This document shows positions 44,787 to 64,000 of a DNA stretch of 64,000 nt, piece by piece. The notes below the pieces were generated by a model that saw only the letters and a list, made by a program, of their open reading frames with translations, had not been told where the DNA came from and did no database searches. Made by a program: the position numbers and the translations under genes. The first letter of the stretch is position 1. The number at the start of each line of letters is the position of its first letter. Location: the IMG/VR virus record IMGVR_UViG_3300032236_001065, positions 1 through 64,000 of that record, one strand, 5' to 3'. Source of the DNA: a virus.

Positions 44787-44988
44787 CGTTAAGGTTGAAC
44801 TTCAGTTTACCCGTAACTTGGGTAATTATGAAAGCCTAAAGATCGGTATTGGTATTGAAGATTTTCAGAGAGATGGCGAGAATATTGACGAAGCCACCAA
44901 TAGGGTGTATACTTTCGTTGAGAAGAAGTTGATGGAGAAAGTCAACGAAGTTGAACAAGAGCTGAATTCTAACAAAGGTAAAAAATGA
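44773..44988 (+). CDS. Hypothetical protein
   Basis: T.NLGNYES motif seen in phage replication modules. Confidence 0.6.
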   Translation: MNQTNVKVELQFTRNLGNYESLKIGIGIEDFQRDGENIDEATNRVYTFVEKKLMEKVNEVEQELNSNKGKK

Positions 44989-46533: not shown

Positions 46534-46576
46534 TTTATGTAATCAAAGTCTAACTTGATATAATTATCAAGAAAGA

Positions 46577-47830: not shown

Positions 47831-47881
47831 TATACTAGAGGAACAGGGCATTAAACAGCCCTTATACTAAGGAGAAATAAT

Positions 47882-48559
47882 ATGGGTATCGTAACAGGTC
47901 TAAAGGCTATGAATGAACAAATGGAACAAAAGTCTCATTCTGGCGACACACAAAAAGGAAGATGGCTACAACTTAAAGATGGCCAATCACTAAAAATCCG
48001 CTTCATGCAAGAAATTGATCCAGACTCAAAGAATTATATTGAGAAGGCTGGTCTTGCTTTCATTGCAGTAGAGCACACTAACCCAAAGGATTACAAGCGT
48101 AAGGCTCTTTGTACAATTGAAGACCAAGGTCGCTGCTATGGTTGCGAAATGCACCGCCGTGATCCAAAGGCTGGTTGGAAGGGTCGTTCACGTTTCTATG
48201 CAAACGTGCTTGTTGATGATGGTTCAGAAGAGCCATATGTCGCAATCTTTTCACAAGGTGCAGGTCCAAAGTCTGCAACACCTGAAATCATTAACTATGC
48301 AGGAGAGACTGGAAGTATTTCCAATCTTACTTGGAAGCTAAAGCGTACAGGTACTGCTACTGACACAAACTATTCAATCATTCCTTTGCCTACAGCAGAT
48401 GTAGCAGCAATTGATTTTGATAAGTATGAATTGTTTGACCTTCAAAAGACTGCAGTTCGTGATGTTCAGTATGATGAGCAAGAAGCATTCTATCTCGGAA
48501 TTACTTCTGATTCATCAGAGGAATCATTGCAATCAACTTCATCCGCCGTTGAGTGGTAA
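47882..48559 (+). CDS. ssDNA-binding protein (gp32-like)
   Basis: H..C..C..C, KR.G...DT.Y, acidic tail ending W; TGATATACT 47828-47836 and AAGGAG. Confidence 0.7.
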   Translation: MGIVTGLKAMNEQMEQKSHSGDTQKGRWLQLKDGQSLKIRFMQEIDPDSKNYIEKAGLAFIAVEHTNPKDYKRKALCTIEDQGRCYGCEMHRRDPKAGWKGRSRFYANVLVDDGSEEPYVAIFSQGAGPKSATPEIINYAGETGSISNLTWKLKRTGTATDTNYSIIPLPTADVAAIDFDKYELFDLQKTAVRDVQYDEQEAFYLGITSDSSEESLQSTSSAVEW

Positions 48560-48583
48560 TTAATAACTAACAGAAAGCTAAAC

Positions 48584-51500: not shown

Positions 51501-51859
51501 AGATTGAGCCAGGCATGATGTACTTCTTCTTGGTAGGAGATAACCGCATTCACAAGTATGTGACAATTGATGATGTAGTCAATAAGGTTGATGACCCATT
51601 CGTACATTGGCTATACAAGGATAAGTTAAAGATTGATAATGGAAAGATGCTTGTTTTAGATTTTACACATTATAAGACTAAAGCAAACAAGATGATGGCA
51701 CATATTATTTTGTCTGATGCAGATAAAAAGCTTGAGAGAGTAATTGCTTTCCCGAAGCTTTATGCAAAGGCACTTGGAAAGATGCAGGCGGGAATGATTT
51801 GTGACCCCGCAATTGCACAGATGGATGATGGAACTTTGTTTGTTAAGGAGGTGAACTAA
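48584..51859 (+). CDS. dnaE: DNA polymerase III alpha subunit (family C)
   Basis: PHP HLHVHSHYS..DG, TDHG, GRGSAAGS, PDIDTD, HAAG, K.D.LGL, YQEQ, FNRSH. Confidence 0.97.
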   Translation: MSDFVHLHVHSHYSLMDGLNTPHELLEAAKNQGQASLAITDHGSLASHRDMQIAAKELGMKPILGLEAYISSTDRFDKRAVAKRDDNTSLYNHIILLAKDDLGLKNLQKLSQIAWTEGYYHKPRIDIDALWEFGDGIIVVSGCMNGLISKAIERGDNEKAREYVKMFKNRFGKDFYIEVQAHNPGSLNTALLALADEFGVKPVATGDCHFAKKEERDLEELLLILSTKPTQNKEADYASGRSYTNVIDRFDHLYPDRPISFSEINVYIQSYKEIKADFEKAGITRKDIYESSVEIADKVEVYDFHENLDLLPVPKKNALKTVKELCEKSLVEKGLDNETYRERLQEELQVIADKNFASYFLVVGDMVGWAKENQIMVGPGRGSAAGSLVCYLMGITEVDPIKFDLLFFRFINPERNDFPDIDTDFMDRRRGEVKEYLRKKFKHVASISTYQYFKDKGVVRDVARAFLVPLGEVNKALKGVETFEEYESSQSTEEFRKKYPEVTKYASMLRGKIRGNGMHAAGVVVARDDISKYVPIETRKDPNDSVSGRIPVVAYDMDQTADLGLIKLDVLGLKTLSVIDDTLRTIEHIKKKKIDLKSIKLNDPKVFEMLSGGFTKGVFQAEATPYTNLLMKMGVSTFEDLAASNALVRPGAMNTVGGSYIRRKKGEEMVTYAHPIMHEFTERTYGVIIYQEQVMQACVYLGGMSWADADKVRKIIGKKKDASEFDAYKDQFVQGASKHITSEDAIKLWHDFEAHAGYSFNRSHAIAYSMLSYYTAWLKYYYPLEFMFAVLKNEKDKDARTDYLLEAKRLGIKVLLPHINESELDFSIQGNSIRFGLSNIKYISDNIGSKITQLRPFKSYKDFTEKAGVKGSGINSRAIESLNMIGAAAFDDNKRKGTENENLYEYLGIPKFDTGKLSPAIKAQVNPLEEFLEEGCFVLLAMVKSIKKGLTWARVELVDDTGSVGIFHEVNTKIEPGMMYFFLVGDNRIHKYVTIDDVVNKVDDPFVHWLYKDKLKIDNGKMLVLDFTHYKTKANKMMAHIILSDADKKLERVIAFPKLYAKALGKMQAGMICDPAIAQMDDGTLFVKEVN

Positions 51860-52059
51860 TGGAAAATCAAGATGTAGCTAACGCTAATATATCCCTAGAA
51901 CAAATTTTGGCAGCAATCATTAATAAGTTTGGTTCAATTGATATTGATATCAAGGACTTGCTAACAAATTATTCAGCTAAAAGTATTTCAGTAACTCAAG
52001 ATCCAGATAACAAAGTTGTTACTTTTGAGCTTGTTGAGAGTCCAACAGAAACCGAATAA
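51859..52059 (+). CDS. Hypothetical protein
   Basis: AAGGAGG SD, TAATG coupling. Confidence 0.65.
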   Translation: MENQDVANANISLEQILAAIINKFGSIDIDIKDLLTNYSAKSISVTQDPDNKVVTFELVESPTETE

Positions 52060-52079
52060 ATAGTGTATAATATAAGTAT

Positions 52080-52334
52080 ATGGCTCAGTCCTACATACTT
52101 AAAGGTACGGAGAACGAGTTCTTGCTAGTAATTAGAGCAGAGGACGAAAAAGCAATCTATAACATTATAGATTTTTTAGCGACTAGTCGTAATGAACAGA
52201 TTAAAGAGTTAGCAATAGAATTAGAAAAGAGTTTACATGATAACGGAAGAGATTCTAGCAAAACTAGATCCAAAAACAAGGTCAAGGCTTCAACTAGCAA
52301 CAACAGTAAGCGTAGAAAAACAAAAGACACCTAG
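52080..52334 (+). CDS. Hypothetical protein overlapping recA 5' end
   Basis: TATAAT 52066-52071, 8 nt before ATG. Confidence 0.55.
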   Translation: MAQSYILKGTENEFLLVIRAEDEKAIYNIIDFLATSRNEQIKELAIELEKSLHDNGRDSSKTRSKNKVKASTSNNSKRRKTKDT

Positions 52335-53235
52335 CATTGCTTTGACAATGGGTCTCAAAGGAGGCTTGGGCTTTGGTCGTCAAGTTCTTATTTGGGGAAA
52401 TAAATCTGCTGGTAAATCATCATTCTGTTTACAAATGATTGGTCAGGCACAGAAAGAAGGTAAGACTTGTGCTTGGATTGATGCAGAGGCATCATATGAC
52501 CCAGCATGGGCAGCCCGCTTGGGTGTTGATTCAGAATCTCTTATCTATTCACCAGCCAAATCTATCAATGACATGGTGGATGTTGCACAGCAACTTATGG
52601 AAGCGGGAGTAGATATTATTGTTGTAGATTCTATCTCAGCTTTACTTCCCGCCATTTATTTTGAGAAAGATAGTTCTGATCTCAAGAAACTTGAAGACAC
52701 CAAGCAGATTGGTGCAGAAGCAAAGGATATGACACATGCAGTCAAAATGCTTAACTATGCCAATAAGAATACATTACTCGTGCTTATTTCTCAACAGAGA
52801 AATCAATTCGGTAGCATGCATGCATCGCACATCCCTACAGGCGGAATGGCAGTTAAGTTTTTTAGCAGTACCGTCATTAAACTTTGGGCATCGGAAGCTG
52901 ATGCGAATGCTATTAAGGCTGGAATCCAAGTTGGTGACAAGATTATTGAACAAAAAGTTGGTAGACCAGTCAATTGGATTATTGACTACAACAAAACTGG
53001 GCCAATGGGTTTATCAGGCCAGTACGACTTTTATTTTCAAGGTGATAAAGTTGGAGTTGACGTTGTTGGCGAGATCCTAGATACTGCAGAAATGATGGGC
53101 ATTGTACAAAAAGGCGGTGCTTGGTACACTGTTAATGAAGAACGTTTTCAGGGTCGTGCAAAAGCCGTAGAATATTTGCGGGAAAATCCAGATGTAGCTG
53201 AAAAGATTAAGGGAGAAATATATGACAAGTCTTGA
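52237..53235 (+). CDS. recA: RecA-like recombinase
   Basis: Walker A GNKSAGKS, IDAE, VVDS, SQ.R, TGG.A..F, GAWY...QG. Confidence 0.93.
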   Translation: MITEEILAKLDPKTRSRLQLATTVSVEKQKTPSIALTMGLKGGLGFGRQVLIWGNKSAGKSSFCLQMIGQAQKEGKTCAWIDAEASYDPAWAARLGVDSESLIYSPAKSINDMVDVAQQLMEAGVDIIVVDSISALLPAIYFEKDSSDLKKLEDTKQIGAEAKDMTHAVKMLNYANKNTLLVLISQQRNQFGSMHASHIPTGGMAVKFFSSTVIKLWASEADANAIKAGIQVGDKIIEQKVGRPVNWIIDYNKTGPMGLSGQYDFYFQGDKVGVDVVGEILDTAEMMGIVQKGGAWYTVNEERFQGRAKAVEYLRENPDVAEKIKGEIYDKS

Positions 53236-53413
53236 GCAGTTTCTTAATAAAGATACAAAAACAAAGCACAAGAGAGTTGAACCAGCAAGCGGTTCATTTG
53301 CTTGTCAAAGTCAAGATTGCAAAGAAATTGTCTTTGAAGGTTTTGTTGATAAAGAAGAAAATCGTCTCTACTGGATATGCAGTCAGAACCATGAATCAAG
53401 TGTGGTATTTTAA
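53222..53413 (+). CDS. Small Zn-binding protein
   Basis: CQ..C...W.C...H. Confidence 0.6.
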   Translation: MTSLEQFLNKDTKTKHKRVEPASGSFACQSQDCKEIVFEGFVDKEENRLYWICSQNHESSVVF

Positions 53414-53721
53414 TGTCAGAGCGTGGAGAAATCAAGCGTGATGGAGCAAAAGGACAAAAAAATTCTGGTCGTGGCGATTACCAAAAGGGAGACGCTCAAT
53501 GGCATAATTTTGTGGTTGATTATAAAGAGTATGAGAAGTCAATCTCTATATCAAAAGCTATTTGGGCTAAAATTTGTACGGACACCTTTAAGGTGGATAG
53601 GAATAAGAGTCCAGTTCTCAAGCTTATCCTTGGTGGAGAAGGCTCTAAAACTAGACTTGCAGTAATTGAATGGGCTTTGTTGGAACAACTAATTGAGTGT
53701 TGGGAGACACATAATGATTGA
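53413..53721 (+). CDS. PD-(D/E)XK Holliday junction resolvase-like protein
   Basis: E......SG....KGD......D.K motif. Confidence 0.65.
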   Translation: MSERGEIKRDGAKGQKNSGRGDYQKGDAQWHNFVVDYKEYEKSISISKAIWAKICTDTFKVDRNKSPVLKLILGGEGSKTRLAVIEWALLEQLIECWETHND

Positions 53722-53896
53722 TGATACTAACCTAGATGAGTTTCAAATCTGGTTTCAAAATGGTGTAGAGCGTGGATGGATTTCAGATGTTTTCTGTGCA
53801 ACCCACGATGGAGTACCATCTATTTCTGAGGAAGAAGAAAAGGAATGGGAAGAAGGCGGAGACCCATGCCAGTTCTGCGTTAGGATTCTTGAATGA
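53714..53896 (+). CDS. Hypothetical protein (start ATG 53714)
   Basis: W...G...GWI...C.THDG.P...E..W..G.DPC. Confidence 0.65.
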   Translation: MIDDTNLDEFQIWFQNGVERGWISDVFCATHDGVPSISEEEEKEWEEGGDPCQFCVRILE

Positions 53897-54219
53897 CAGA
53901 AAAGCCAGTTATTGAATTAATCAGCGAACTTACAGAGTTCAATGATATGAAGCAATTCATGAGTGACCCAGATCTTGACTATGCTCTTGATTTGATTATT
54001 AAGCTTATTGCAAAGCCAGATGTTCCATCATCAAAGGCTCCCGATCTTATTGTAAAGATGCAGGCTTTGTCTGCTAAGTTTGCTATGATGTCACGCTATT
54101 ACACCACCTTTGAAAAAGGCGGGGAGAACAGCAAGAAGAAGAACGTGTATTACACAGCTGAAGAAGCAATCAATAGATTAGTAGATGCTCTAAAGTATTC
54201 TGCAAAGTATGGAGCATAA
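53893..54219 (+). CDS. Hypothetical helical protein
   Basis: Coupled ORF. Confidence 0.6.
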   Translation: MTEKPVIELISELTEFNDMKQFMSDPDLDYALDLIIKLIAKPDVPSSKAPDLIVKMQALSAKFAMMSRYYTTFEKGGENSKKKNVYYTAEEAINRLVDALKYSAKYGA

Positions 54220-54335
54220 TGAATTTTTTAAGAAGACTTTTCCATAAGCATGTTTCAACAGATATAGCATGCCCTTTTACTGGAAAGACATACATAATGT
54301 GCTCTGAATGTGGTAAAAGGATTGGTGTCAGATAA
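54219..54335 (+). CDS. 38-aa Zn-finger-like peptide; not in ORF track
   Basis: MNFLRRLFHKHVSTDIACPFTGKTYIMCSECGKRIGVR; TAATG-coupled at both ends. Confidence 0.65.
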   Translation: MNFLRRLFHKHVSTDIACPFTGKTYIMCSECGKRIGVR

Positions 54336-55120
54336 TGGGAAGAGATTTAATAGCTAATTTAAAGTTTCAAAAGGTATCAGACCCAGAAGGCTTTGATCCA
54401 ATTAAATTTGCAGAAATGTATGAGGAGGCAGTATTAAGTGGAAAAAGACCAAACGAATTCACGCAGAAGAAAACTTTTAGCCCTAGCACTGTTGGTTATG
54501 GTAATGGTAACTGCCCTAGATATTGGTTCATTGCTTTTACTGGTGCTGAGTTTGAAAATGAAACTGATGCTATGGGTGTCGTTAACATGGATAATGGTAC
54601 GTATGTTCATGATCGCATTCAGAAAGTCATGGCTAAAACTCCAGTATTCAAGGCAAATGAAACAGAAGTTACCCATGATGATCCTCCAATTAGAGGATTT
54701 GCAGACACTTTTATTGAATGGAACGGAAAAGAAGTAGTAGGCGAAATCAAGTCTGCCAAAGAAGAAATATTTGCAATCAGACAAGCTGAGATGCAAGGGC
54801 TTCCATACCATAAAGTTCAGCTATTAACTTATATGAAAATACGTGGAGCAAAGCAAGGTTTCTTTTTCTATGAAAATAAAAATGATAATTCATTTTTAAT
54901 TATTCCAATTAACATGGATGAAAAGAATGCCAAGCTTGTTGACGGTGTATGGGACTGGATGCGTAAAGTATACGGTGCATATGAGGATGGAACTTTGCCA
55001 GAAAGAACATTTACCAAATCAACATGGGCATGTAAGGGTTGTCCAGTTAAGAAGGTATGTTGGGCTGAGAAGAAAGATCTCGGTGAGGTTTACATAGAAC
55101 CGTTGGTGCTTGAAAAATGA
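54335..55120 (+). CDS. Cas4-like PD-(D/E)XK exonuclease
   Basis: CPR, G...H, G.AD, EIKS, Q...Y, C..CP....C. Confidence 0.85.
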   Translation: MGRDLIANLKFQKVSDPEGFDPIKFAEMYEEAVLSGKRPNEFTQKKTFSPSTVGYGNGNCPRYWFIAFTGAEFENETDAMGVVNMDNGTYVHDRIQKVMAKTPVFKANETEVTHDDPPIRGFADTFIEWNGKEVVGEIKSAKEEIFAIRQAEMQGLPYHKVQLLTYMKIRGAKQGFFFYENKNDNSFLIIPINMDEKNAKLVDGVWDWMRKVYGAYEDGTLPERTFTKSTWACKGCPVKKVCWAEKKDLGEVYIEPLVLEK

Positions 55121-55404
55121 AATGTGCCTATGATGAATGTAAAAAAGAATTTACTCCTAAAACACACAATCAGAAATATTGCTCTGATGAATGTTGCCGA
55201 ATAGCAACTAATCAAAAATTAAAAGAAGCTTACTATGAGAAGAAGGCAAGACTTGCGGGCAAGCAAAGGATTTGTAAAACTAAAGGCTGCAATGTAATTT
55301 TGAGTAGATATAATGAATCAAGCATATGTGATAAGTGTGTCAGCTCTTCTAAAGAAAATGATAGAAAAGCCCTAATAGAAATGATAGAAAATGTCATTGG
55401 CTAA
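55117..55404 (+). CDS. Zn-finger protein
   Basis: C....C...F.......YCS..C and a second C....C...C..C. Confidence 0.7.
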   Translation: MKCAYDECKKEFTPKTHNQKYCSDECCRIATNQKLKEAYYEKKARLAGKQRICKTKGCNVILSRYNESSICDKCVSSSKENDRKALIEMIENVIG

Positions 55405-55948
55405 GCTTGTAAAGCCCAGAGGTACTAAAGTGCTAGGCATAGATGCCAGCACTAATAGCCTTGCATTTTGCTTGATGAATGGAAAAGAGGCGGTTAAATG
55501 GGGAGAGATCACATTTGACGGGGCAGATGTATACGAAAGAATACTTGATGCCAAAAGAAAGATTAAATCATTTAAGAATCAGCTAGATACTGATTTTGTT
55601 GTTATAGAGGCTGCTATATCAGTTAAGTCAGTGCACACGGGAATGAAAATGGCATACGTATTTGGTGCTATAATGGGAGAGTTGCTTAGTAATAATGTTG
55701 AGGTAGTGGAGGTTCACCCCATAACCTGGCAGTCATACCTTGGAAACAAGAATTATACTAAGGCAGAGAAAGAGGCGATTAAACTTGAATTCCCAGGAAA
55801 ATCAGATAACTGGATTAAAGCAAAAATCAGAGAAAGAAGAAAACAAAGGACGATTGACTTTGTTAGAAATATGGGCGTTAAAACTGAGTCCGATAATGTC
55901 GCTGATGCGGCGGGAATAGCGTGGTATGCAGTAAATGAAATTATATGA
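55391..55948 (+). CDS. ruvC: RuvC-like resolvase
   Basis: LGIDAS, VIE, P..W...G, K, DN.ADA. Confidence 0.85.
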   Translation: MSLAKLVKPRGTKVLGIDASTNSLAFCLMNGKEAVKWGEITFDGADVYERILDAKRKIKSFKNQLDTDFVVIEAAISVKSVHTGMKMAYVFGAIMGELLSNNVEVVEVHPITWQSYLGNKNYTKAEKEAIKLEFPGKSDNWIKAKIRERRKQRTIDFVRNMGVKTESDNVADAAGIAWYAVNEII

Positions 55949-56096
55949 CTCTAAAGAGTGGTGCTATAAAAGATATGTAGTAGAAAAGAAAAAAATTGTT
56001 GATATGGCTATGGAAGCTAAATGCTCACATATGACAATTCAGCGATCACTAGAAAGATTTGGATTTATCAAGAAACCTAGAAAGTGGACTAAATAA
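55935..56096 (+). CDS. 53-aa HTH protein; not in ORF track
   Basis: MKLYDSKEWCYKRYVVEKKKIVDMAMEAKCSHMTIQRSLERFGFIKKPRKWTK; TAATG-coupled to 56096. Confidence 0.7.
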   Translation: MKLYDSKEWCYKRYVVEKKKIVDMAMEAKCSHMTIQRSLERFGFIKKPRKWTK

Positions 56097-56410
56097 TGGC
56101 AAAAAACTATGACGACCTATATTTGCATGCAGTAAATGCTCCATCTGGACATAGAATCCTTGACAAGTGTATGAATATAGCACAAATGCTTATTGATAAA
56201 AATATATCCTATGGCGACTCCGCCCTGTCTCCAAAAAGAATATTTTCAACTTCAGATAATGTAGAGCAGCTTAAAGTAAGAATTGATGATAAGTTAAATC
56301 GTATTGCAAATGCTCAAGGATACCCAGGCGATAATGATATTGATGATATGATTGGTTATTTAATCTTACTTAAAATTGCTATTGACAAGAACCGACAAGA
56401 TGGAGTATAA
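56096..56410 (+). CDS. DUF1599/Nmad1-like all-alpha (MazG-related) protein
   Basis: KN..YGDS, RIDDKL.R, D..GY..L. Confidence 0.65.
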   Translation: MAKNYDDLYLHAVNAPSGHRILDKCMNIAQMLIDKNISYGDSALSPKRIFSTSDNVEQLKVRIDDKLNRIANAQGYPGDNDIDDMIGYLILLKIAIDKNRQDGV

Positions 56411-56411
56411 T
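56382..56411 (+). promoter_or_regulatory. Consensus promoter giving a leaderless transcript
   Basis: TTGACA-N18-TATAAT, ATG 5 nt downstream. Confidence 0.8.
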
Positions 56412-56416
56412 TAAGT

Positions 56417-56596
56417 ATGCCAACATATCCATATGCTTGTGTAAATTGCGATACAAGTGAAGAAGTGACTAGAAAATTTAATGACCCAGAAGTAATTCCG
56501 CCATGCCCAACTTGTGGGTATAAAATGGCAAGAGTATATACCCCCGCAGGAATCCAATTTAAGGGTTCTGGTTTTTACAAAACAGATAATGGATAA
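56417..56596 (+). CDS. FmdB-family Zn-ribbon protein; not in ORF track
   Basis: MPTYPYACVNC...CPTCG...RVY....I.FKGSGFYKTD. Confidence 0.88.
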   Translation: MPTYPYACVNCDTSEEVTRKFNDPEVIPPCPTCGYKMARVYTPAGIQFKGSGFYKTDNG

Positions 56597-56597
56597 A

Positions 56598-57332
56598 ATG
56601 GAAAATCAAGAAGATTTTGAAAAACATGAAAGAATATTTTATTTAAAAAAACAATTAGAAATTTTTGAAGCAGCTGATGTAGAATATTCCAGGTTCGGCA
56701 GCACAAATGATGGTGGATACATTCTTGTAAATGATCTGGTTAATGATGATTATTTGCTTTCAATGGGTGTTGAAGGAAACGTAGACTTTGAAAAAGATTT
56801 ATCTAAAATAATTTCAGGTATGGACTTGTACGATTTTTCTGTTTCAGATTTACCTGAACCAATAAATAATTCAATTTTTTTTCAAGAAAAAATTGGTTTA
56901 AAGGAAAATGGCGATACAGACTTGTCAGCCTGCCTAGAAAGAATTAGTTTGACTACAGACTTAATTTGGAAGATGGATATAGAGGGCGGGGAGTTAGATA
57001 TTTTGCCTTATGTTACAGAAGATCAACTAAATAGGTTTAGACAAATAGTCATTGAATTCCATGATATGGATAGACTTGAATCAGACATGGAATATTATAA
57101 TAAGGTTTTATCTTCGCTTATTAGTATAAGGAGAACACATACGCCAGTTCTTGTTCATCCTAATAACAATATACATTTAATAGTAATAGGAAATTCTCCA
57201 GTACCGCCAGTTTTTGAAGTATTGTATTTAAGAAATTCAAGCTATTCTTTTAAAAACAAAATAGATCCGTTTAAAAATTTGATTGCTAGAAATAATTTAA
57301 TTAAGCCAGAGATAGGATTGACATTTCCATGA
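56598..57332 (+). CDS. FkbM-like SAM-dependent methyltransferase (start corrected to ATG 56598)
   Basis: R.G...DGGY, S.GV....FE, KMDIEG.E, QIVIEFH, H.NN. Confidence 0.8.
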   Translation: MENQEDFEKHERIFYLKKQLEIFEAADVEYSRFGSTNDGGYILVNDLVNDDYLLSMGVEGNVDFEKDLSKIISGMDLYDFSVSDLPEPINNSIFFQEKIGLKENGDTDLSACLERISLTTDLIWKMDIEGGELDILPYVTEDQLNRFRQIVIEFHDMDRLESDMEYYNKVLSSLISIRRTHTPVLVHPNNNIHLIVIGNSPVPPVFEVLYLRNSSYSFKNKIDPFKNLIARNNLIKPEIGLTFP

Positions 57333-58090
57333 AAAAGAAAATACTCATTTATTGTCTTTTCAGAGACTCGTCATATTATATAAAATTTCATTATAAAATG
57401 ATGAAGCAAATTGTTGAAACTTTTCCAGAAATAGAATTTTATTATTCAGCATATGAAAATGATTCAATTGATAGTACGCCAGAGTTACTTCAGAATTTGA
57501 ACTGGTCATTTTTTAAAGATTATTCAATAGTTACTGAAAAACTAGATACAAAAAAGTATGGTCCAGTAATGGCAGAAGACAGGGTAAAAAATCTTTCCAT
57601 AGCAAGAAACAAAGCTGTTGAAGCAAAAGATTTTTATAAAGATGTTGATTATATAATGATGTTTGAATCAGACATTGTTTTTGATATTTCAACTGTAAAA
57701 AAGATTATTAATTTTGATATAGTTGAGCCAGAGTTTGATATAGTTTCTGGCTTTACTTCTTTCATGAGAGATCCAATATTAATATATGATACTTGGGCTA
57801 CCCGAACGACCAATAGATACGACAATGATTTGCATCCAATTGATTTAAAACCAGATTGGCAGAATACCTATTACGACACTTACTATACAACATCAAATGG
57901 AATTTGTTTGATGAAGGCCGAGCCATTTAAAAAAGGTGTGCGATACGATTATATAAATAAAAGTTATGGAAAATTTGACTGTGAAACAGCAGTACTATGC
58001 AAAAACTTTAGGGATCATAATTACAACAATATTTATATAATTCATAAAGCTCTTATATATCATGGAGTGGCACTAAATGATTCCGATTAA
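57329..58090 (+). CDS. GT-A fold glycosyltransferase (Anp1/CAP59-like motifs)
   Basis: YENDS.D.T, R...L..ARN, ESD (DxD equivalent), YDTWATR, CE. Confidence 0.75.
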   Translation: MKKKILIYCLFRDSSYYIKFHYKMMKQIVETFPEIEFYYSAYENDSIDSTPELLQNLNWSFFKDYSIVTEKLDTKKYGPVMAEDRVKNLSIARNKAVEAKDFYKDVDYIMMFESDIVFDISTVKKIINFDIVEPEFDIVSGFTSFMRDPILIYDTWATRTTNRYDNDLHPIDLKPDWQNTYYDTYYTTSNGICLMKAEPFKKGVRYDYINKSYGKFDCETAVLCKNFRDHNYNNIYIIHKALIYHGVALNDSD

Positions 58091-58418
58091 AGAAAACAGA
58101 CCGTGGGGATTTTACAGATCCCTGGAAGAGTCAGAGAACTATAAGGTTAAATATATTTGGGTAGACTCTGGTCATAAACTATCTTATCAAACCCACAAAT
58201 ATAGAAGTGAACATTGGTTCATTGTCTCTGGTGTAGCATTGGTTACTATAAATGATGAGCAAAATGTAATGTATGGCGGGGACAGTGTGGATATTCCAGT
58301 TGGCACACCACATAGAATAGAAGCTTTAAATACACCAGTAGAGTTTATAGAGGTCCAGTCTGGCACATATTTTGGTGAAGATGACATAGTTAGAATAGAG
58401 GATGCATATGGCAGATAA
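58077..58418 (+). CDS. Cupin, mannose-6-phosphate isomerase type II C-terminal domain
   Basis: RPWG, S.Q.H..RSEHW.V, H.I, EVQ.G.Y.GEDDI.R.ED.YGR. Confidence 0.9.
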   Translation: MIPIKENRPWGFYRSLEESENYKVKYIWVDSGHKLSYQTHKYRSEHWFIVSGVALVTINDEQNVMYGGDSVDIPVGTPHRIEALNTPVEFIEVQSGTYFGEDDIVRIEDAYGR

Positions 58419-58938
58419 TGAGATTGAATTAGCTGGTCAATTTGATCAAATGAATAAGGTTATTGAAGAGTTGCTAAAAGGTAATTCTCCAGCACAGATA
58501 GCCCGCTCTTTAGACCTTACCCGTGTTCAAGTAGAAAACTATATTGATGCATGGAAGGGCTTTGTCCATGACAATAAAGCTATACGTGAACGTGCAAAAG
58601 AAGCTTTAGCGGGAGCGGATGAGCATTACAATATGCTTATCAAAGAAGCTTGGGTTACATTAAACCAAGCAGATGCACAGGATGCACCTAATATTAAAGC
58701 ACAAGTAATTAAGCTTATTGCTGACATTGAAGCAAAGCGTATTGATATGTTAAACAAGGCGGGAGTTCTAGAAGATACTTCTATGGCTGACCAGATCCTA
58801 GAATCAGAAAGAAAACAAGATATTCTTGTTGGTATTCTTAGAGATGTAACTTCATCTTGTGAACATTGCAAGTGGGAAGTATCAAGAAGATTGTCAGAAG
58901 TAACTGGACAAGTAGAGGCAGTTGTTATAAGTGACTGA
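58408..58938 (+). CDS. Putative terminase small subunit
   Basis: N-terminal HTH (QIARSL.L.R.QV); overlaps terL start. Confidence 0.6.
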   Translation: MADNEIELAGQFDQMNKVIEELLKGNSPAQIARSLDLTRVQVENYIDAWKGFVHDNKAIRERAKEALAGADEHYNMLIKEAWVTLNQADAQDAPNIKAQVIKLIADIEAKRIDMLNKAGVLEDTSMADQILESERKQDILVGILRDVTSSCEHCKWEVSRRLSEVTGQVEAVVISD

Positions 58939-60772
58939 TTTTAATGTATTCCTTGATGCACTTGAGGGAGATGAGTTTTCTGAAAAACCTGCATCTCTTG
59001 AGGAGTTTGTAACAAGCAAGGATTACCTTGGTTTGCCACCATTGTCGCAATACCAGTATCAAATGATTAGGGCTTCAACACAAATTTATAAGCGTGAAAC
59101 TTTGCGTAAACTTTATGGCGAAGAAGAAGGCGAAAAGATTTGGAAGCAAACTTGTTCTGAAGTTATTTTACAGCTAGGTAAAGGTTCTGGAAAAGACTAT
59201 ACATCTACTATTGCTTGTGCCTACATGGTACATTTGCTTTTATGCCTAACTGATCCAGCAAGATATTATGGAAAGCCACCAGGCGATGCTATTGATATTA
59301 TCAATATTGCTATTAACGCTATTCAAGCCAACCGAGTATTCTTTAAAGGATTTACACAGCGTATTGAAAAGTCACCCTGGTTTCAAGGAAAGTATATTGC
59401 TAAAGCAAATATGGTTGAATTTGATAAAGCTGTAACAGTTCACTCAGGCCACTCTGAACGTGAAGCATGGGAAGGTTATAACGTTCTTGTAGTTATCCTT
59501 GATGAAATTTCAGGCTTTGAATTGGAATCAACTTCTGGCCATGAACAAGCGAAGACTGCATCATCAATTTATAAGATGTACCGTGCATCTGTAAACTCTC
59601 GTTTTCCAGATTTTGGTAAAGTAATTCTACTTTCATTTCCACGTTTTAAGAACGATTATATCCAACAAAAGTATAACGAGGCGGTGGCTGAGAAGGAAGT
59701 AGTTCTTAGACATCATAAGTTTAAGGTAGACCCAGATCTTCCAGATGGCACAGAAGGTAATGAATTTGAAATGGAATGGGAAGAAGATCACATTATTTCA
59801 TACAAAGTGCCTAGAATGTATGCTTTAAAAAGACCAACATGGGAAATTAATCCTACCAGAACTATTGATGATTTTACTATTGACTTTTATACAGACCCTA
59901 CAGATGCTCTTTCTCGCTTTGCATGTATGCCTCCAGATGCCACAGATGCGTTCTTTAAAAACCGTGCGGTTATTGAAAAAGCATTTAGTAATCCAAATTT
60001 AAATGTAGATTCTTATGGAAGATTTGATGATTCATTCAAGCCTAAAGATAACATTAAATATTTTATGCATGTTGACTTAGCCCAAAAGCATGACCACTGT
60101 GCCGTAGCTTTAGCACATGTTGACGGCTGGGTGACAATGAAAATTGGTGACAAATATAAAGAAGCAGCACCCAGAGTTGTAGTGGATGCCGTAAGATATT
60201 GGACTCCAACAGCATCAAAGTCAGTTGATTTTACAGAAGTTAAAGATTATATTACAAGCGTCAGAGATCGTGGTTTTAATCTTAAAATGGTTACATTTGA
60301 CCGATGGAACTCTCACGACATGATGCAACAATTAAATGTTCACGGGATTAAAACTGAAGTCTTATCAGTTGCAAAGAAACATTATGAGGATATGTCTCTA
60401 ACTTTAACTGAAGAAAGATTGCATGGACCAAAAATCCAATTGCTTATAGATGAATTGCTACAACTTCGTATTGTTAAAGATAAAGTTGATCACCCTAGAA
60501 AAGGTTCTAAAGACCTTTCAGATGCTGTTTGTGGTTCAATATATAATGCTATTGCAATGACCCCACCAGATTCAGATAAAGAAGTTGAAATCTATTCTTA
60601 TTCTGGTGTATTTGCAGATGAATTAGCAAAACTTAAAGAAGAGTCAGATGCCAGATTAAAGACTGTTATTAAAATGCCTGAAAAACCTGATATGCCATCA
60701 AATTTGCGGGATTTCATGGGGCTTGATGAAGATGAAGACAATATCCCTATTGACAGCTTTAGAATACTATAG
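58931..60772 (+). CDS. terL: Terminase large subunit
   Basis: GKGSGKD, LDE, HVDLA, FDRWN, DHP..GSKD.SDA. Confidence 0.92.
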   Translation: MTDFNVFLDALEGDEFSEKPASLEEFVTSKDYLGLPPLSQYQYQMIRASTQIYKRETLRKLYGEEEGEKIWKQTCSEVILQLGKGSGKDYTSTIACAYMVHLLLCLTDPARYYGKPPGDAIDIINIAINAIQANRVFFKGFTQRIEKSPWFQGKYIAKANMVEFDKAVTVHSGHSEREAWEGYNVLVVILDEISGFELESTSGHEQAKTASSIYKMYRASVNSRFPDFGKVILLSFPRFKNDYIQQKYNEAVAEKEVVLRHHKFKVDPDLPDGTEGNEFEMEWEEDHIISYKVPRMYALKRPTWEINPTRTIDDFTIDFYTDPTDALSRFACMPPDATDAFFKNRAVIEKAFSNPNLNVDSYGRFDDSFKPKDNIKYFMHVDLAQKHDHCAVALAHVDGWVTMKIGDKYKEAAPRVVVDAVRYWTPTASKSVDFTEVKDYITSVRDRGFNLKMVTFDRWNSHDMMQQLNVHGIKTEVLSVAKKHYEDMSLTLTEERLHGPKIQLLIDELLQLRIVKDKVDHPRKGSKDLSDAVCGSIYNAIAMTPPDSDKEVEIYSYSGVFADELAKLKEESDARLKTVIKMPEKPDMPSNLRDFMGLDEDEDNIPIDSFRIL

Positions 60773-60778
60773 TAGAAT
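60750..60778 (+). promoter_or_regulatory. Promoter upstream of tRNA region
   Basis: TTGACA-N17-TAGAAT. Confidence 0.7.
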
Positions 60779-60808
60779 ACACCTACAACAACAAACAAAG
60801 GATAATAA

Positions 60809-61084
60809 ATGTTAGCGAATGGAACGATTAAAACAATTGAAGACGATGAAGATATCTATATTAGTTTAACTTCACTTTGTGAATATTTTACACAATCATC
60901 AGTAAATATGAAGAAAGAAATTGAAGGTGTAGAAACACGTAATAAGAGATATGCATTGGGATTATATGATATGATGCATACTATTGCACAAGAAATTGTA
61001 GAGTTGGGCAAGTTTGAAGCACAGCGTAGAATGATTGATACTCCTCAAGATATTCTTGATATCGCTGAAAAGTTTAAGAAGTAA
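60809..61084 (+). CDS. Hypothetical protein
   Basis: AAGGA SD. Confidence 0.6.
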   Translation: MLANGTIKTIEDDEDIYISLTSLCEYFTQSSVNMKKEIEGVETRNKRYALGLYDMMHTIAQEIVELGKFEAQRRMIDTPQDILDIAEKFKK

Positions 61085-61094
61085 ATTTTAAAAT

Positions 61095-61168
61095 TGGTCT
61101 GTAGCTCAATTGGCAGTAGCGTCCGACTGTTAATCGGAAGGTTGTAGGATCGTGCCCTACCAGACCAG
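61095..61168 (+). tRNA. tRNA-Asn(GTT)
   Basis: Acceptor TGGTCTG/CAGACCA, anticodon arm TCCGA-CTGTTAA-TCGGA, T arm GTAGG-ATCGTGC-CCTAC; no encoded CCA. Confidence 0.9.
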
Positions 61169-61203
61169 CAAATTATTAACCAACTAATAGAGAGAGTATA
61201 ATT

Positions 61204-61452
61204 ATGAATATGATGGCAGAAAAGACAGAGGAAGTAATTGATGATAAAGAGTTTGTACTTGGTCCTAGCAATCGCTGTGATTCTTGTTCTGCTGAGGCGT
61301 TAGTTTGGGTTAAAGGTGTTGCGGGAGAATTAATGTTTTGCGGACACCATTATTCAAAAAATGAAAATGCTCTGAAAGAATTTGCGTTTGAGATCATTGA
61401 TGAAAGAGAAAAGTTAATACAGAATAAATTAATTGGTGAAGCACACGCCTAA
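61204..61452 (+). CDS. Small Zn-binding protein (actinobacterial type)
   Basis: RCD.C.A.A......GEL.FCGHH; TATAAT 61197-61202 suggests a leaderless start at 61210. Confidence 0.7.
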   Translation: MNMMAEKTEEVIDDKEFVLGPSNRCDSCSAEALVWVKGVAGELMFCGHHYSKNENALKEFAFEIIDEREKLIQNKLIGEAHA

Positions 61453-61459
61453 TCAATAA

Positions 61460-61533
61460 GGAGCAATAGCTCAGTTGGTTAGAGCCCCCGACTCATAATC
61501 GGGTCGTCGTAGGTTCAAGTCCTACTTGCTCCA
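61460..61533 (+). tRNA. tRNA with CAT anticodon (Ile2-lysidine or elongator Met)
   Basis: GGAGCAA/TTGCTCC, GCTC/GAGC, CCCGA-CTCATAA-TCGGG, GTAGG-TTCAAGT-CCTAC; lacks initiator features; C29-G41 favours Ile2. Confidence 0.9.
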
Positions 61534-61537
61534 CTAA

Positions 61538-61609
61538 TTCCCGTTCGTCCAATTGGCAGGACAATGGCCTTTGAAGCCATGAATCGTGGTCCGAATCCAC
61601 GGCGGGAAG
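61538..61609 (+). tRNA. tRNA-Gln(TTG)
   Basis: TTCCCGT/GCGGGAA, GTCC/GGAC, ATGGC-CTTTGAA-GCCAT, CGTGG-TCCGAAT-CCACG. Confidence 0.9.
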
Positions 61610-61610
61610 C

Positions 61611-61730
61611 GAGGCTACAGATGGCACACCTTAGTATGGATATAGTTACACATAAACATGTACCCGAGTGTAAGAGTTCGGGGAGATAGGGCAGCGTCAT
61701 TCGGTGCTGGAATATCCATCTGTAGTCCTC
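61611..61730 (+). ncRNA. Candidate structured ncRNA, family unknown
   Basis: 14-bp closing stem GAGGCTACAGATGG/CCATCTGTAG(T)CCTC plus internal helices; abuts tRNA-Gln. Confidence 0.55.
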
Positions 61731-61758
61731 ATCTAAATGATGTTATAATTAAACTATC

Positions 61759-62301
61759 ATGACAGATGCCCACGATCAAAAAATGACTTTCACTGTTCTG
61801 GCTCATATACCAGAACATGACCCCAGGGAATCTGATCCAAATTACAAATATTTTAATGCAGCCAAAAAACGCATAAAAAAGGCGGGACTTTGGAAATGTG
61901 CCATAAATGATGATTTATGCGGTGGACAAATGGAATTACACCATACACACATAGAATTTAGCCAGATACCTAATGCTGATAAGGTTAAAGTAGAGGCATA
62001 TTTTGGGTTAAATTTCAAGGATGATCAAGAGTTTCAAGTGTGGCTAGAAAGTCCAGGAAATCTTGAGGTATTGTGTACTAATCACCATAGGACACATTAT
62101 GGGATTCACACCCTGCCCCACGCTCTTTGGGAAGCCCTGCGTTTTAGAAAAAATGGTACTTTGCCTTCTGCAGAAGTAATACCAAATGCTAAAAAGAAAA
62201 AGTTTGATATCAAAGAAGCTTTGGGTTCAAAACCAAATGCTGATATAATTAAGGCGGAGGAAACAAACAATGGCAATCAATCATCAAATAGTAACAGTTG
62301 A
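61759..62301 (+). CDS. HNH-family protein
   Basis: C.....C....ELHH, NL..LC..HH....GIH; TGTTATAAT 61741-61749. Confidence 0.7.
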   Translation: MTDAHDQKMTFTVLAHIPEHDPRESDPNYKYFNAAKKRIKKAGLWKCAINDDLCGGQMELHHTHIEFSQIPNADKVKVEAYFGLNFKDDQEFQVWLESPGNLEVLCTNHHRTHYGIHTLPHALWEALRFRKNGTLPSAEVIPNAKKKKFDIKEALGSKPNADIIKAEETNNGNQSSNSNS

Positions 62302-62563
62302 CAATAGCGGAACTTCCCTTGTCAGCATTCCACAAGCAAATGCAATTCCTTATGAGAATAAGGTTTCAATTTCAATTCAGAATTTAGATTCAAACAATAC
62401 TGTTTACTTGGGAGCAGCTGGAGTCAGTGGCTCAGTTTATGGCTACGCTCTTGCAGCAGGTACAACATTTGCAATTGACCTACTTCCTGGCGATAAGCTT
62501 TTTGGAACAACAGGAACAAATGGTTTAACAGCACAAATTGCAGTTCTAGCAGCAGAGGTTTAA
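62270..62563 (+). CDS. Small beta-rich putative virion protein
   Basis: IQN......VYLG...V....GY.L..G; TGATATAAT 62241-62249 + GGAGG. Confidence 0.6.
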   Translation: MAINHQIVTVDNSGTSLVSIPQANAIPYENKVSISIQNLDSNNTVYLGAAGVSGSVYGYALAAGTTFAIDLLPGDKLFGTTGTNGLTAQIAVLAAEV

Positions 62564-62564
62564 T

Positions 62565-64000
62565 ATGGCTATAAGACTAAACTTAGGATCTTTATCAAAC
62601 AAGATTACTTTGCCTGGTCTTTTTCGCAATTTTTCAATATTAAGTGGTGGAACAACAACTTCTGATTCAATTTATTATTATACAACTTTTAACAGCACTG
62701 GAACTTTTAGTATTTCTAATGCACCATTAAAAGCAGATATTCTTGTTGTCGCTGGTGGCGGTGGCGGAGGATATCAACAGTCAGGCGGTGGTGGAGCTGG
62801 AGGATATCAATCTTTATCTTATAAGCTGCCTGTAGGAACATATACTGTAACTATCGGCGGCGGTGGTTATGGTGGATATGAAAATGTAAAAGGTGGTCAA
62901 GGAGCAAGCTCTTCTTTTGGTAGTTTAATTACTTCAGTTGGCGGCGGTGGCGGAGGCTCTTGGGGCCGTGGTGCAACAGGTGGAGTAACAAATGTTGGTG
63001 GAGATGGAGGTTCTGGTGGTGGTAATGGAATCGGAACTGGAAACCCAACTGGTGGACACGGAATTGCTGGGCAAGGACATGATGGCGGAACAAGTGCTTT
63101 CAATGGCGGTGGCGGCGGAGCAGGACAAATTGGGCAACAAGGAGATGCAGTAAATGGATCTTATGGCGGTGCTGGCGGAAATGGTTTAACTTGGTTTAAT
63201 GGTCAAACATATGCAGGCGGCGGCGGCGGAGGAGCATTCCAACCAGCCAATACTGTAGGAGGTGCTGGCGGTGCTGGCGGAGGCGGAGCTGGAAAATCTG
63301 GAAATATAAACGGAGATCCTGGCTCAACAAATACTGGCGGCGGCGGCGGTGCTGGAGGGCAATATTCAAGTTCTTTCCCATTTGGAAGTGGCGGAACGGG
63401 CGGTTCTGGAATTGTTATTCTTCGTTATCCTAAATCTATAGTAGCTTCAAATGATTCATCCCTTACATATATTACAATTAATGGAACAAGATATTCAATA
63501 TCAGACCTAGCTGGAATTAGCAACACAATTAATTTACCATATGGAACAACATCTGCAACAGTATCAGCAACCCAGTCAAACAAGTATGCAAAAATTAATA
63601 TATCTAGTACTTCAGGTTTTTCAACAGGAGATAATACATGTACCATAACAGTAACAGCTCAAGATCAAACAACAACCGCTTATACATTAAATCTTCATGT
63701 TATTGCAGCATCAACAGATACTAGAATAGGTACAGTTACAATAAATGGAACAACATATTCTGCAGATGATTTATCTGCAATTTCAGGCATTATTTCATTG
63801 CCATATGGAACAACTTCAGTAACAGTATCTGCAACTGCCCTAGATCAATTTGCAAGAATTGGTACTATAACTGGTAGTACAGATTTGTCTGTAGGAGATA
63901 ATACACTTCATATAGCTGTAATATCACAATCTGGTTTAATAGGATTTTATAATATTAATCTTGCAGTTGCAGCACCCGCAACAGATTCATCTTTATCATC
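62565..64000 (+). CDS. Glycine-rich paralog 9 fused to cadherin-like beta-sandwich repeats; 3' end outside window; not in ORF track
   Basis: MAIRLNLG...SGGTTTSDSIYYYTTF...ADILVVAGGGGGG...GGSGIVILRYP, then two (L..ITING....LPYGTTS.TVSAT....GDNT..I.V) repeats. Confidence 0.8.
   Translation, partial: MAIRLNLGSLSNKITLPGLFRNFSILSGGTTTSDSIYYYTTFNSTGTFSISNAPLKADILVVAGGGGGGYQQSGGGGAGGYQSLSYKLPVGTYTVTIGGGGYGGYENVKGGQGASSSFGSLITSVGGGGGGSWGRGATGGVTNVGGDGGSGGGNGIGTGNPTGGHGIAGQGHDGGTSAFNGGGGGAGQIGQQGDAVNGSYGGAGGNGLTWFNGQTYAGGGGGGAFQPANTVGGAGGAGGGGAGKSGNINGDPGSTNTGGGGGAGGQYSSSFPFGSGGTGGSGIVILRYPKSIVASNDSSLTYITINGTRYSISDLAGISNTINLPYGTTSATVSATQSNKYAKINISSTSGFSTGDNTCTITVTAQDQTTTAYTLNLHVIAASTDTRIGTVTINGTTYSADDLSAISGIISLPYGTTSVTVSATALDQFARIGTITGSTDLSVGDNTLHIAVISQSGLIGFYNINLAVAAPATDSSLS

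What the first reader, a model, noticed from the sequence alone, without database searches (positions are those of the whole stretch)
61095..61609. Non-canonical tRNA T-loops that remove TCGA, including an A54/U58 swap
Seen: the T-loops are ATCGTGC (Asn), TTCAAGT (CAT) and TCCGAAT (Gln). Known: the common loop TTCGANY contains TCGA and needs the U54-A58 reverse-Hoogsteen pair and U55. tRNA-Asn has the pair swapped (A54, U58) and tRNA-Gln has C55, while acceptor, anticodon and T stems stay fully paired, so this is not decay. Inference: restriction-site avoidance has reshaped near-invariant tRNA positions. An alternative is escape from host tRNA-targeting nucleases or modification enzymes.
Basis: partly seen in the sequence, partly recalled or inferred. 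Interest (0 to 1): 0.7.

Follow-up and report, generated by a model that had tools for sequence, protein, structure and literature searches.

The report
Odd T-loops in phage tRNA genes
Three working tRNA genes of an uncultured freshwater phage that has removed every TCGA from its DNA carry T-loops without TCGA, two of them unusual, but the same unusual loops are common in phages that keep TCGA, so the purge probably selected these variants and did not invent them.

Summary
Three tRNA genes, Asn-GTT, CAT and Gln-TTG, lie at the stated coordinates with T-loops ATCGTGC, TTCAAGT and TCCGAAT. The 81.5-kb record has 0 TCGA against 49 expected. TTCAAGT is canonical.

Among 80 terminase relatives, non-canonical loops without TCGA occur in 16 of 73 tRNAs where flanking DNA has no TCGA, and in 0 of 204 elsewhere. 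One 82-kb sibling keeps TCGA only inside tRNA genes, 7 of 7 sites. Sister tRNAs differ mainly at TCGA sites.

Three results limit this. A54 with A58 occurs in TCGA-bearing relatives. Only 2-3 independent contrasts exist. Both odd loops are widespread where TCGA is normal: 77 of 103 A54/U58 tRNA-Asn loci and 39 of 56 C55 tRNA-Gln loci.

A54/U58 tRNA-Asn keeps 963 of 969 stem pairs across 57 distinct sequences. It is rare in cellular genomes: 13 stretches in 185,579 species.

My best reading is that the purge filters a standing pool of viable phage T-loop variants. The scan noted a similar purge in another phage (e1-5674953).

The parts
61095..61169 (+). tRNA-Asn (anticodon GTT) with U1-A72 and a non-canonical T-loop
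   Evidence: ARAGORN; RF00005 at 55.5 bits.
61149..61155 (+). T-loop ATCGTGC of tRNA-Asn: A54, U55, C56, G57, U58. The 54-58 pair is flipped and the loop holds no TCGA.
   Evidence: The same loop class occurs in 57 distinct tRNA-Asn sequences with 963 of 969 stem pairs standard.
61460..61534 (+). tRNA with anticodon CAT (elongator Met or Ile2) and the canonical T-loop TTCAAGT at 61514-61520
   Evidence: ARAGORN; RF00005 at 71.4 bits. Its antisense strand matches Rfam Plastid-ycf2 at 52.6 bits, below that family's gathering score of 65.7.
61538..61610 (+). tRNA-Gln (anticodon TTG) with U1-A72 and a non-canonical T-loop
   Evidence: ARAGORN; RF00005 at 51.0 bits.
61590..61596 (+). T-loop TCCGAAT of tRNA-Gln: C55 replaces the near-universal U55, and the loop holds no TCGA
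   Evidence: An identical stretch 61502-61610 lies in a contig of run X3, which is from another study (record 30, 0 other letters).
1..64000 (.). Genome-wide purge of TCGA, CCGG, CGCG and GCGC, which sets the DNA-level constraint on the tRNA genes
   Evidence: for the window (TCGA 0 against 36.6, CCGG 0 against 86.1, CGCG 1 against 34.5, GCGC 6 against 84.7); for the whole record.

Best explanation
The stretch holds three functional phage tRNA genes in a freshwater phage whose terminase and tRNA-Asn resemble those of phages that infect Actinobacteria. This phage escapes restriction passively, by carrying no TCGA, no CCGG and almost no CGCG or GCGC. The usual T-loop TTCGANY contains TCGA, so the purge collides with the most conserved part of a tRNA. 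In this lineage most tRNAs resolve the conflict in the canonical way, by G57 to A57 (TTCAA..), as in the CAT and Arg(TCT) tRNAs here. tRNA-Asn and tRNA-Gln keep G57 and carry alternative loops instead: a flipped 54-58 pair (A54/U58) or C55, and in relatives U56. These alternatives were not created by the purge. They are viable T-loop variants that circulate widely among phage tRNA genes, including in phages that keep TCGA, and tRNA genes are exchanged between phages. The purge acts as a filter and fixes whichever TCGA-free variant is available or arises. The likely steps are A58 to U on an existing A54 background for Asn, and U55 to C for Gln. Shown here: the sequences, the depletion, the family-level association, the wide distribution of the variants and stem covariation. 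Inferred: that restriction enzymes are the selective agent, the order of substitutions, and that the tRNAs are expressed and charged.
For: (1) The purge is real: TCGA is 0 against 49 expected in 81.5 kb. Non-palindromic CG-containing 4-mers are only mildly low, for example TCGG 64 against 96. (2) The conflict is visible in sibling record G001 (terminase 86% identical): TCGA is 7 against 60 expected, all 7 inside tRNA genes and none outside. (3) Among G000 plus 80 terminase relatives, TCGA-free non-canonical loops (7 TCCGA, 7 ATCGT, 1 TTTGA, 1 TCCAA) are 16 of 73 tRNAs in loci with no TCGA outside their tRNAs, against 0 of 204 in loci with at least one. (4) Sister tRNAs differ mainly at TCGA sites. 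The L023 tRNA-Asn has three TCGA sites, two in the anticodon stem and one in the T-loop. The L005 tRNA-Asn on the same backbone has none: the stem sites went by a compensatory pair change and the loop site by U55C (nearest-neighbour score 59 of 65). The L006 and L012 tRNA-Gln (C55) are nearest to the L014 tRNA-Gln (U55). ATCGAGA in L027 and ATCGTGA in L117, L128 and L130 share the T stem and D loop (the D stem only with L128) and differ in the loop at position 58 only. (5) A second, unrelated lineage repeats the pattern. L123 (TCGA 0 against 11, CCGG normal) has TTCAA where its relative L163 has TTCGA in Gln, Pro, Val, Tyr, Phe and Leu (L142 and L158 likewise for Gln, Pro, Val and Tyr). Its His is ATCGTAA against TTCGACC in those relatives. 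(6) The variants pre-exist. Of 103 viral loci with an A54/U58 tRNA-Asn and TCGA expectation of at least 5, 77 have TCGA observed/expected of 0.5 or more (median 1.04). C55 tRNA-Gln lies in 39 loci with TCGA present against 17 with none. A54 with A58 is present in TCGA-bearing relatives. (7) The variants are functional. In 40 distinct A54/U58 tRNA-Asn, 99.6% of cells are paired, 18 of 21 pairs show changes on both sides, and the covariation score is 0.81 against 0.21 for shuffles. All 57 distinct sequences together have 963 of 969 stem pairs standard, with 37 different acceptor strands. U58 never occurs with U54: the 54/58 combinations are TA 397, AT 23, AA 7, CA 3, GG 2, CG 1. (8) tRNA genes are swapped between phages. 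L006 and L007 have near-identical terminases but tRNA-Asn loops TCCGAAT and ATCGTAG, and the loop class changes 11 times on the terminase tree.
Against: The family association is partly circular, because a locus free of TCGA cannot hold a TTCGA loop. It is also phylogenetically thin: the terminase tree gives only 2-3 independent contrasts and the sign test cannot reach significance. Many loci are short, and 12 of 81 had too little DNA to classify. Across phages, A54/U58 is only modestly enriched in TCGA-depleted loci: 18 of 103 against 5 of 108 for canonical TTCAA tRNA-Asn. About 13 of those 18 belong to this one CCGG-free family. The idea that G57 is constrained in tRNA-Asn and tRNA-Gln holds in this family: 0 of 22 Asn and 0 of 7 Gln use TTCAA in depleted loci, against 10 of 10 Arg(TCT) (partly ascertained by my own patterns). 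Other TCGA-depleted phages do use TTCAAGC in tRNA-Asn (L443, L444, L536). No restriction enzyme, host or expression data were obtained.
Confidence: 0.62

Rival explanations
1. One reading: TCGA avoidance itself created the A54/U58 swap and C55 by new substitutions at near-invariant positions in this lineage.
For: In this family ATCGT and TCCGA loops occur only in TCGA-free contexts. The tRNA-Asn of G000 shares its acceptor stem and an unusual D arm with the TTCGAGT tRNA-Asn of L008, L011, L013 and L048, which is compatible with change in place. The tRNA-Gln pairs differ at position 55 on near-identical backbones.
Against: A54 already exists with A58 in TCGA-bearing relatives. Identical loops, including ATCGTGC itself, occur on many unrelated backbones in phages with normal TCGA, and C55 tRNA-Gln does too. 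The 3' half of the G000 tRNA-Asn is identical to that of L151 and L175, so import or recombination is just as possible.
Confidence: 0.15
2. The odd loops are selected at the RNA level and their lack of TCGA is incidental. For example, they could keep phage tRNAs out of reach of host enzymes or defence nucleases that read the T-loop and elbow, or of modification at U54, U55 or A58.
For: The variants are widespread in TCGA-normal phages. The 54/58 covariation is strict. Other virus-typical loops such as TGCAA and AGCGT do not remove any TCGA that G57A would not also remove.
Against: Within this family the variants are absent from all 204 tRNAs of TCGA-bearing relatives. TCGA sites in anticodon stems were removed in the same tRNAs, which points to DNA-level selection. 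No nuclease or enzyme that targets the T-loop was identified here. The papers I found on phage tRNA escape concern anticodon loops (search listing).
Confidence: 0.18
3. The tRNA genes are decaying or non-functional copies and the loop changes are neutral damage.
For: Rfam scores are lower for the two variant tRNAs (55.5 and 51.0 bits) than for the canonical one (71.4 bits). The tRNA-Asn D stem has a mismatch.
Against: All three score far above the gathering score of 29. Stems are fully paired. Compensatory changes are pervasive across relatives. G18, G19 and the anticodon loop are invariant in the 40-sequence alignment. The same loops persist in contigs from other runs and years.
Confidence: 0.03

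Closest known systems
Restriction-site (short palindrome) avoidance in prokaryotic viruses (Rusinov et al. 2018, PMC6286503)
   Same: Specific 4-base palindromes are missing far beyond what composition predicts, and the set purged differs between close relatives.
   Different: Here the purge is followed into tRNA genes. A term search of that paper found 0 occurrences of 'tRNA'; I read only the passages that search returned. No cognate enzyme or host is known for this phage.
Earlier finding of this scan, e1-5674953: a restriction-site purge that rewrites phage tRNA genes, including U55
   Same: The phenomenon is the same: TCGA removed from T-loops, with changes at near-invariant positions.
   Different: It concerns another genome. 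The present work adds the caveat that the same loop variants are common where TCGA is not avoided.
A54-A58 T-loops of eukaryotic initiator tRNA and eukaryotic tRNA-Ala
   Same: A purine at position 54 is tolerated in functional tRNAs. The TCGA-bearing relatives here have ATCGAGA, with A54, A58 and A60. This resembles the initiator loop described in passages of PMC7912444 and the A54/A58 pair that PMC7566577 describes (its A54/A58 content recalled; seen only as a title and truncated abstract in the listing).
   Different: The window's loop has U58, so the pair is flipped, not purine-purine. These are bacterial-type elongator tRNAs of phages. None of my searches returned a description of A54/U58.
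Phage tRNAs that evade host tRNA-targeting defences by anticodon-loop mutations (PMC10264068)
   Same: Phage tRNAs deviate from host-like consensus under selection.
   Different: That work concerns anticodon loops, and its listing shows 0 occurrences of 'T-loop' (I saw only the listing and the start of the abstract). Here the deviation is in the T-loop and correlates with a DNA word.

Membership tests
tRNA (Rfam RF00005), bacterial type | Cloverleaf that scores above the curated gathering score | tested here: met
   55.5, 71.4 and 51.0 bits against 29. ARAGORN gives cloverleaves with paired stems.
tRNA (Rfam RF00005), bacterial type | U54-A58 reverse-Hoogsteen pair in the T-loop | tested here: not met
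   tRNA-Asn has A54 and U58. The feature is met in the CAT and Gln tRNAs.
tRNA (Rfam RF00005), bacterial type | U55 (pseudouridine 55) and C56 facing G18 and G19 | tested here: not met
   tRNA-Gln has C55, while G18, G19 and C56 are present. tRNA-Asn keeps U55, C56, G18 and G19.
tRNA (Rfam RF00005), bacterial type | Evolutionary conservation of the helices through compensatory changes | tested here: met
   I aligned 40 of the 57 distinct A54/U58 tRNA-Asn sequences. 99.6% of cells are paired and 18 of 21 pairs show changes on both sides. All 57 together have 963 of 969 stem pairs standard.
tRNA (Rfam RF00005), bacterial type | Expression, CCA addition and aminoacylation | not testable with these tools
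   No RNA run is listed as holding the stretch. This is uninformative.
Restriction-site avoidance | A short palindrome far below its Markov expectation while non-palindromic words of similar composition are not | tested here: met
   TCGA 0 against 49, CCGG 0 against 106, CGCG 1 against 45, GCGC 7 against 107. TCGG is 64 against 96 and GCGT 82 against 125.
Restriction-site avoidance | The purged set differs between close relatives, as expected from host-specific pressure | tested here: met
   G003 has TCGA 28 against 45. G001 has GCGC 72 against 138, where G000 has 7 against 107. One search gives the per-locus table.
Restriction-site avoidance | A host enzyme that cuts the avoided site | not testable with these tools
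   The host is unknown. TaqI-type enzymes cutting TCGA are recalled knowledge, not a result of any call.
Restriction-site avoidance | No self-methylation that would make avoidance unnecessary | tested here: inconclusive
   No match to PF07669, PF01555 or PF00145 in G000-G004. These records are only 25-77% complete and only three families were tried.
Eukaryotic-initiator-like A54 T-loop | A54 together with A58 and A60 | tested here: not met
   The window's loop is ATCGTGC, with U58 and C60. Relatives L017, L025, L027 and L038 do have ATCGAGA.

The most novel reading that the evidence does not exclude
A54/U58, together with the C55, U56 and G55 loops seen alongside it, may be a virus-specific class of tRNA elbow. 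It is conserved over very diverse phage tRNA backbones yet almost absent from cellular genomes. It could be maintained because it changes how host T-loop-reading enzymes or defence nucleases treat phage tRNAs. On this reading, TCGA-avoiding phages merely co-opt it. A narrower reading is that, in this lineage, G57 of tRNA-Asn and tRNA-Gln cannot change, which forces the purge through otherwise invariant positions. Both tRNAs have U1-A72, the pair I recall as the mark read by the GatCAB transamidation route.
Probability: 0.25. Interest if true: 0.75.

Novelty: new variant of a known kind. Interest (0 to 1): 0.55.

Why it matters
T-loop positions 54, 55, 56 and 58 are among the most conserved nucleotides known. 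This family offers a natural experiment: a DNA-level pressure (no TCGA allowed) is set against an RNA-level constraint, and one can read which solutions evolution accepts for each tRNA. It also shows that a flipped 54-58 pair and C55 are tolerated, conserved and common in phage tRNAs but rare in cells. That is useful for tRNA structure work, for designing orthogonal tRNAs, and for tRNA gene finders that penalise such loops. It also cautions against reading every odd feature of a purged genome as a product of the purge.

Tried and rejected
**Searches of cultured phages**
- A near-identity search of the 4-kb region against cultured phages found nothing.
- tRNA-Asn look-alikes in cultured phages all had canonical TTCGA loops: Gordonia phage Woes, Mycobacterium phage Bxz2, Caulobacter CcrBL9, Acinetobacter SH-Ab 15599, Burkholderia HN01, Halorubrum HRTV-5 and DSS3_VP1.
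- The 23 ARAGORN tRNAs of phage T5 include no A54/U58 or C55 loop. One is TTTAAAT. I therefore found no cultured example of the variants.

**Expression**
- No RNA holder is listed for the stretch.
- Laying DNA contigs only confirmed the sequence. X3 record 30 covers 61502-61610 with 0 other letters.
- The X12 contig over the tRNA-Asn T-loop differs at 61154 and 61155 only among the rows shown. 65 further rows were not shown.

**Methylase search**
- The three Pfam families tried gave no match in five incomplete records.

**Statistics**
- Independent-contrast statistics on the terminase tree cannot reach significance, with only 2-3 pairs.

**Rows dropped**
- 6 of 81 loci were left out of the tree because their terminase match was shorter than 560 residues.
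- 17 of the 57 distinct A54/U58 tRNA-Asn were left out of alignment A1 because of atypical D arms or lengths. All 57 were then checked positionally.

**Literature**
- Four searches and the listing returned no paper that describes TCGA avoidance acting on T-loops, or A54/U58 loops in phage tRNAs.
- Zagryadskaya et al. 2003 (NAR 31:3946) is not held. I saw only its entry in the reference list of PMC7912444.
- From memory only, its selected clones had U54-A58, G54-A58 or G54-G58 and not A54-U58.
- Supplementary files were not consulted.

**Considered and rejected**
- Decay of the genes is rejected on the covariation evidence.
- General CpG depletion as the cause of missing TCGA is rejected because non-palindromic CG words are only mildly low.

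Full report
**What is there.** The window is the first 64 kb of an 81,523-bp IMG/VR virus record. It is linear, about 76% complete and 39% G+C. ARAGORN finds three tRNA genes in the window: 61095-61169 Asn(GTT), 61460-61534 CAT and 61538-61610 Gln(TTG). A fourth, Arg(TCT), lies at 68474-68547 of the record. Rfam's tRNA model scores the three at 55.5, 71.4 and 51.0 bits, against a gathering score of 29.

Each lies between 5-bp T stems. So tRNA-Asn has A54 and U58, and tRNA-Gln has C55. TTCAAGT is a canonical TTCRANY loop.

The record contains no TCGA against 49 expected from a second-order Markov model. It also has no CCGG (106 expected), one CGCG (45 expected) and seven GCGC (107 expected). 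Non-palindromic CG-containing words are only mildly depleted.

**The family experiment.** The large terminase (58931-60772) is about 65% identical to terminases of Streptomyces phages. It has hundreds of relatives in IMG/VR, and I took the best 80 loci, at 67-91% identity. I ran ARAGORN on each and counted TCGA outside the tRNA genes.
- In the 63 loci with at least one TCGA outside tRNAs, the 204 tRNAs have loops TTCGA (134), TTCAA (62) or ATCGA (8). None has C55, U58 or U56.
- In the 18 loci with none (6 with at least 5 expected, 12 too short to classify), 16 of 73 tRNAs have TCGA-free non-canonical loops: 7 TCCGA, 7 ATCGT, 1 TTTGA and 1 TCCAA.
- tRNA-Asn and tRNA-Gln carry TCGA in the T-loop in 28 of 28 and 26 of 26 cases in the TCGA-bearing loci.

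The whole 82,185-bp sibling record G001 (terminase 86% identical) has 7 TCGA against 60 expected, and all 7 lie in its tRNA genes. The purge has reached everything there except the T-loops. Record G002 has 2 against 30 expected, none in tRNAs, and a tRNA-Asn loop ATCGTTA.

Sister tRNAs make the point at single-base level.
- The L023 tRNA-Asn has three TCGA sites, two in the anticodon stem and one in the T-loop.
- The L005 tRNA-Asn on the same backbone has none. The stem sites were changed as a compensated pair (TTCGA/TCGAA to TCCGA/TCGGA) and the loop by U55C.
- The C55 tRNA-Gln of L006 and L012 is closest to the U55 tRNA-Gln of L014.
- ATCGAGA (L027) and ATCGTGA (L117, L128, L130) share the T stem and D loop (the D stem only with L128) and differ in the loop only at position 58.

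An unrelated lineage repeats the experiment. L123 (TCGA 0 against 11 expected, CCGG normal) has TTCAA where its relative L163 has TTCGA in six tRNAs (four of these also in L142 and L158), and has ATCGTAA in tRNA-His where they have TTCGACC.

- A54 is not a product of the purge. ATCGAGA, ATCGAGG and ATCGATG tRNA-Asn occur in nine relatives whose T-loop keeps TCGA. These include L070 and L071, where TCGA is at expectation (22 against 25 and 20 against 23).
- The family association is thin once relatedness is counted. The terminase tree shows two TCGA-poor clades, each with members that keep TTCGA in tRNAs and members that do not. Only 2-3 independent contrasts exist.
- The decisive point is that the same loops are common elsewhere. 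Many lie beside canonical TTCGA tRNAs in loci with normal TCGA.
- With a stricter pattern, 120 viral loci were in hand. Of the 103 with at least 5 TCGA expected, 77 had observed/expected of 0.5 or more (median 1.04), 8 were intermediate and 18 were depleted.
- A control set with the canonical TTCAA loop gave 5 depleted of 108. The enrichment is therefore modest, and most of it comes from this one CCGG-free family.
- C55 tRNA-Gln behaves alike: 56 of 79 loci held one, 17 in loci without TCGA and 39 in loci with it.

**The variants are functional and virus-typical.**
- Forty distinct A54/U58 tRNA-Asn sequences align with 99.6% of helix cells paired. 18 of 21 pairs change on both sides, and the covariation score is 0.81 against 0.21 in shuffles and at most 0.15 in slid controls.
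- All 57 distinct sequences have 963 of 969 acceptor, anticodon and T-stem pairs standard, on 37 different acceptor strands.
- Among 433 non-ascertained tRNAs in TCGA-normal loci of the first scan, the 54/58 combinations are TA 397, AT 23, AA 7, CA 3, GG 2 and CG 1. U58 never occurs with U54, as expected if 54 and 58 still pair.
- In 185,579 species genomes the strict pattern matched only 13 stretches: 11 on MAG contigs and 2 in isolates. 12 of the 13 give an ARAGORN tRNA-Asn with ATCGT, and most sit in dense arrays of mixed tRNAs of the phage kind.
- I found no cultured phage with these loops among those I looked at.
- My literature searches returned no description of them.

**Best reading.** The purge of TCGA is a DNA-level pressure. 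By established knowledge of palindrome avoidance it most likely reflects restriction enzymes of the hosts (PMC6286503; only passages seen).

The pressure extends into the tRNA genes and determines which T-loop is kept. Most tRNAs take the canonical G57A route. In this family tRNA-Asn and tRNA-Gln do not: 0 of 22 and 0 of 7 distinct sequences use TTCAA in depleted loci, against 10 of 10 for Arg(TCT) (partly ascertained by my own patterns). They carry A54/U58, C55 or U56 instead.

These loops come from a standing pool of viable phage variants and move with exchanged tRNA genes. L006 and L007 have near-identical terminases but different tRNA-Asn genes, and the loop class changes 11 times on the tree. 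The G57 constraint is not general, because other TCGA-poor phages use TTCAAGC in tRNA-Asn.

I give this filter model about 0.62. The strict version, in which the purge made the swap, gets about 0.15. RNA-level selection with an incidental lack of TCGA gets about 0.18. Decay gets about 0.03.

**Limits.** Loci are often short. T-loop calls rest on ARAGORN and on positional parsing. The host, the restriction enzymes, expression and charging are all unknown. No DNA methylase of three Pfam families was found, but the records are incomplete.

The scan had already noted a TCGA purge rewriting tRNA genes in another phage (e1-5674953). I did not re-test that case. This report agrees with it on the phenomenon and adds the caveat about pre-existing variants.

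Noticed in passing
window 61460-61534 (minus strand for the match): The antisense strand of the CAT tRNA matches Rfam Plastid-ycf2 5'UTR RNA at 52.6 bits, below its gathering score of 65.7. From memory, plastid trnI-CAU lies next to ycf2. If so, this tRNA may be a lysidine-type tRNA-Ile2 and not tRNA-Met.
   Followed up: no
window 61095-61169 and 61538-61610: Both tRNA-Asn and tRNA-Gln start with U1 paired to A72, as do tRNA-Asn of Gordonia phage Woes and Mycobacterium phage Bxz2. From memory, U1-A72 is the mark read by the GatCAB transamidation route. That would fit an actinobacterial host.
   Followed up: partly
G001 (contig of L011) compared with G000: Close siblings purge different palindromes. 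GCGC is 72 against 138 expected in G001 but 7 against 107 in G000, and CGCG is 5 against 67 versus 1 against 45. CCGG is 0 in nearly all 80 relatives.
   Followed up: partly
L226 (Chloroflexaceae MAG contig, 66% G+C), also L114, L154 and L260: Phage-like arrays of up to 28 tRNAs in which most T-loops read TGCAA or TGCGA, with G55 in place of U55. AGCGT and AGCAT loops occur in several loci too. This is another recurrent non-canonical T-loop class that has nothing to do with TCGA.
   Followed up: no
window 61204-61452 (+): An 82-codon ORF sits between tRNA-Asn and the CAT tRNA. The DNA appears to read, by eye, as a Cys-x-x-Cys and Cys-Gly-His-His pattern. It was not translated or searched with any tool.
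   Followed up: no
In the contigs this stretch is covered along with the tRNAs.
   Followed up: no
L228 ('Nitrososphaera sp.' MAG contig) and L224 ('Rhodoluna sp.' MAG contig, 549 bases): These contigs, binned into cellular MAGs, carry tRNA arrays typical of these phages. L228 has Met TTCAAGT, Asn ATCGTAG, Gly TTTGAGT and Arg TTTGAAT, with TCGA 0 against 5.7 expected. They are probably phage DNA that was mis-binned.
   Followed up: no
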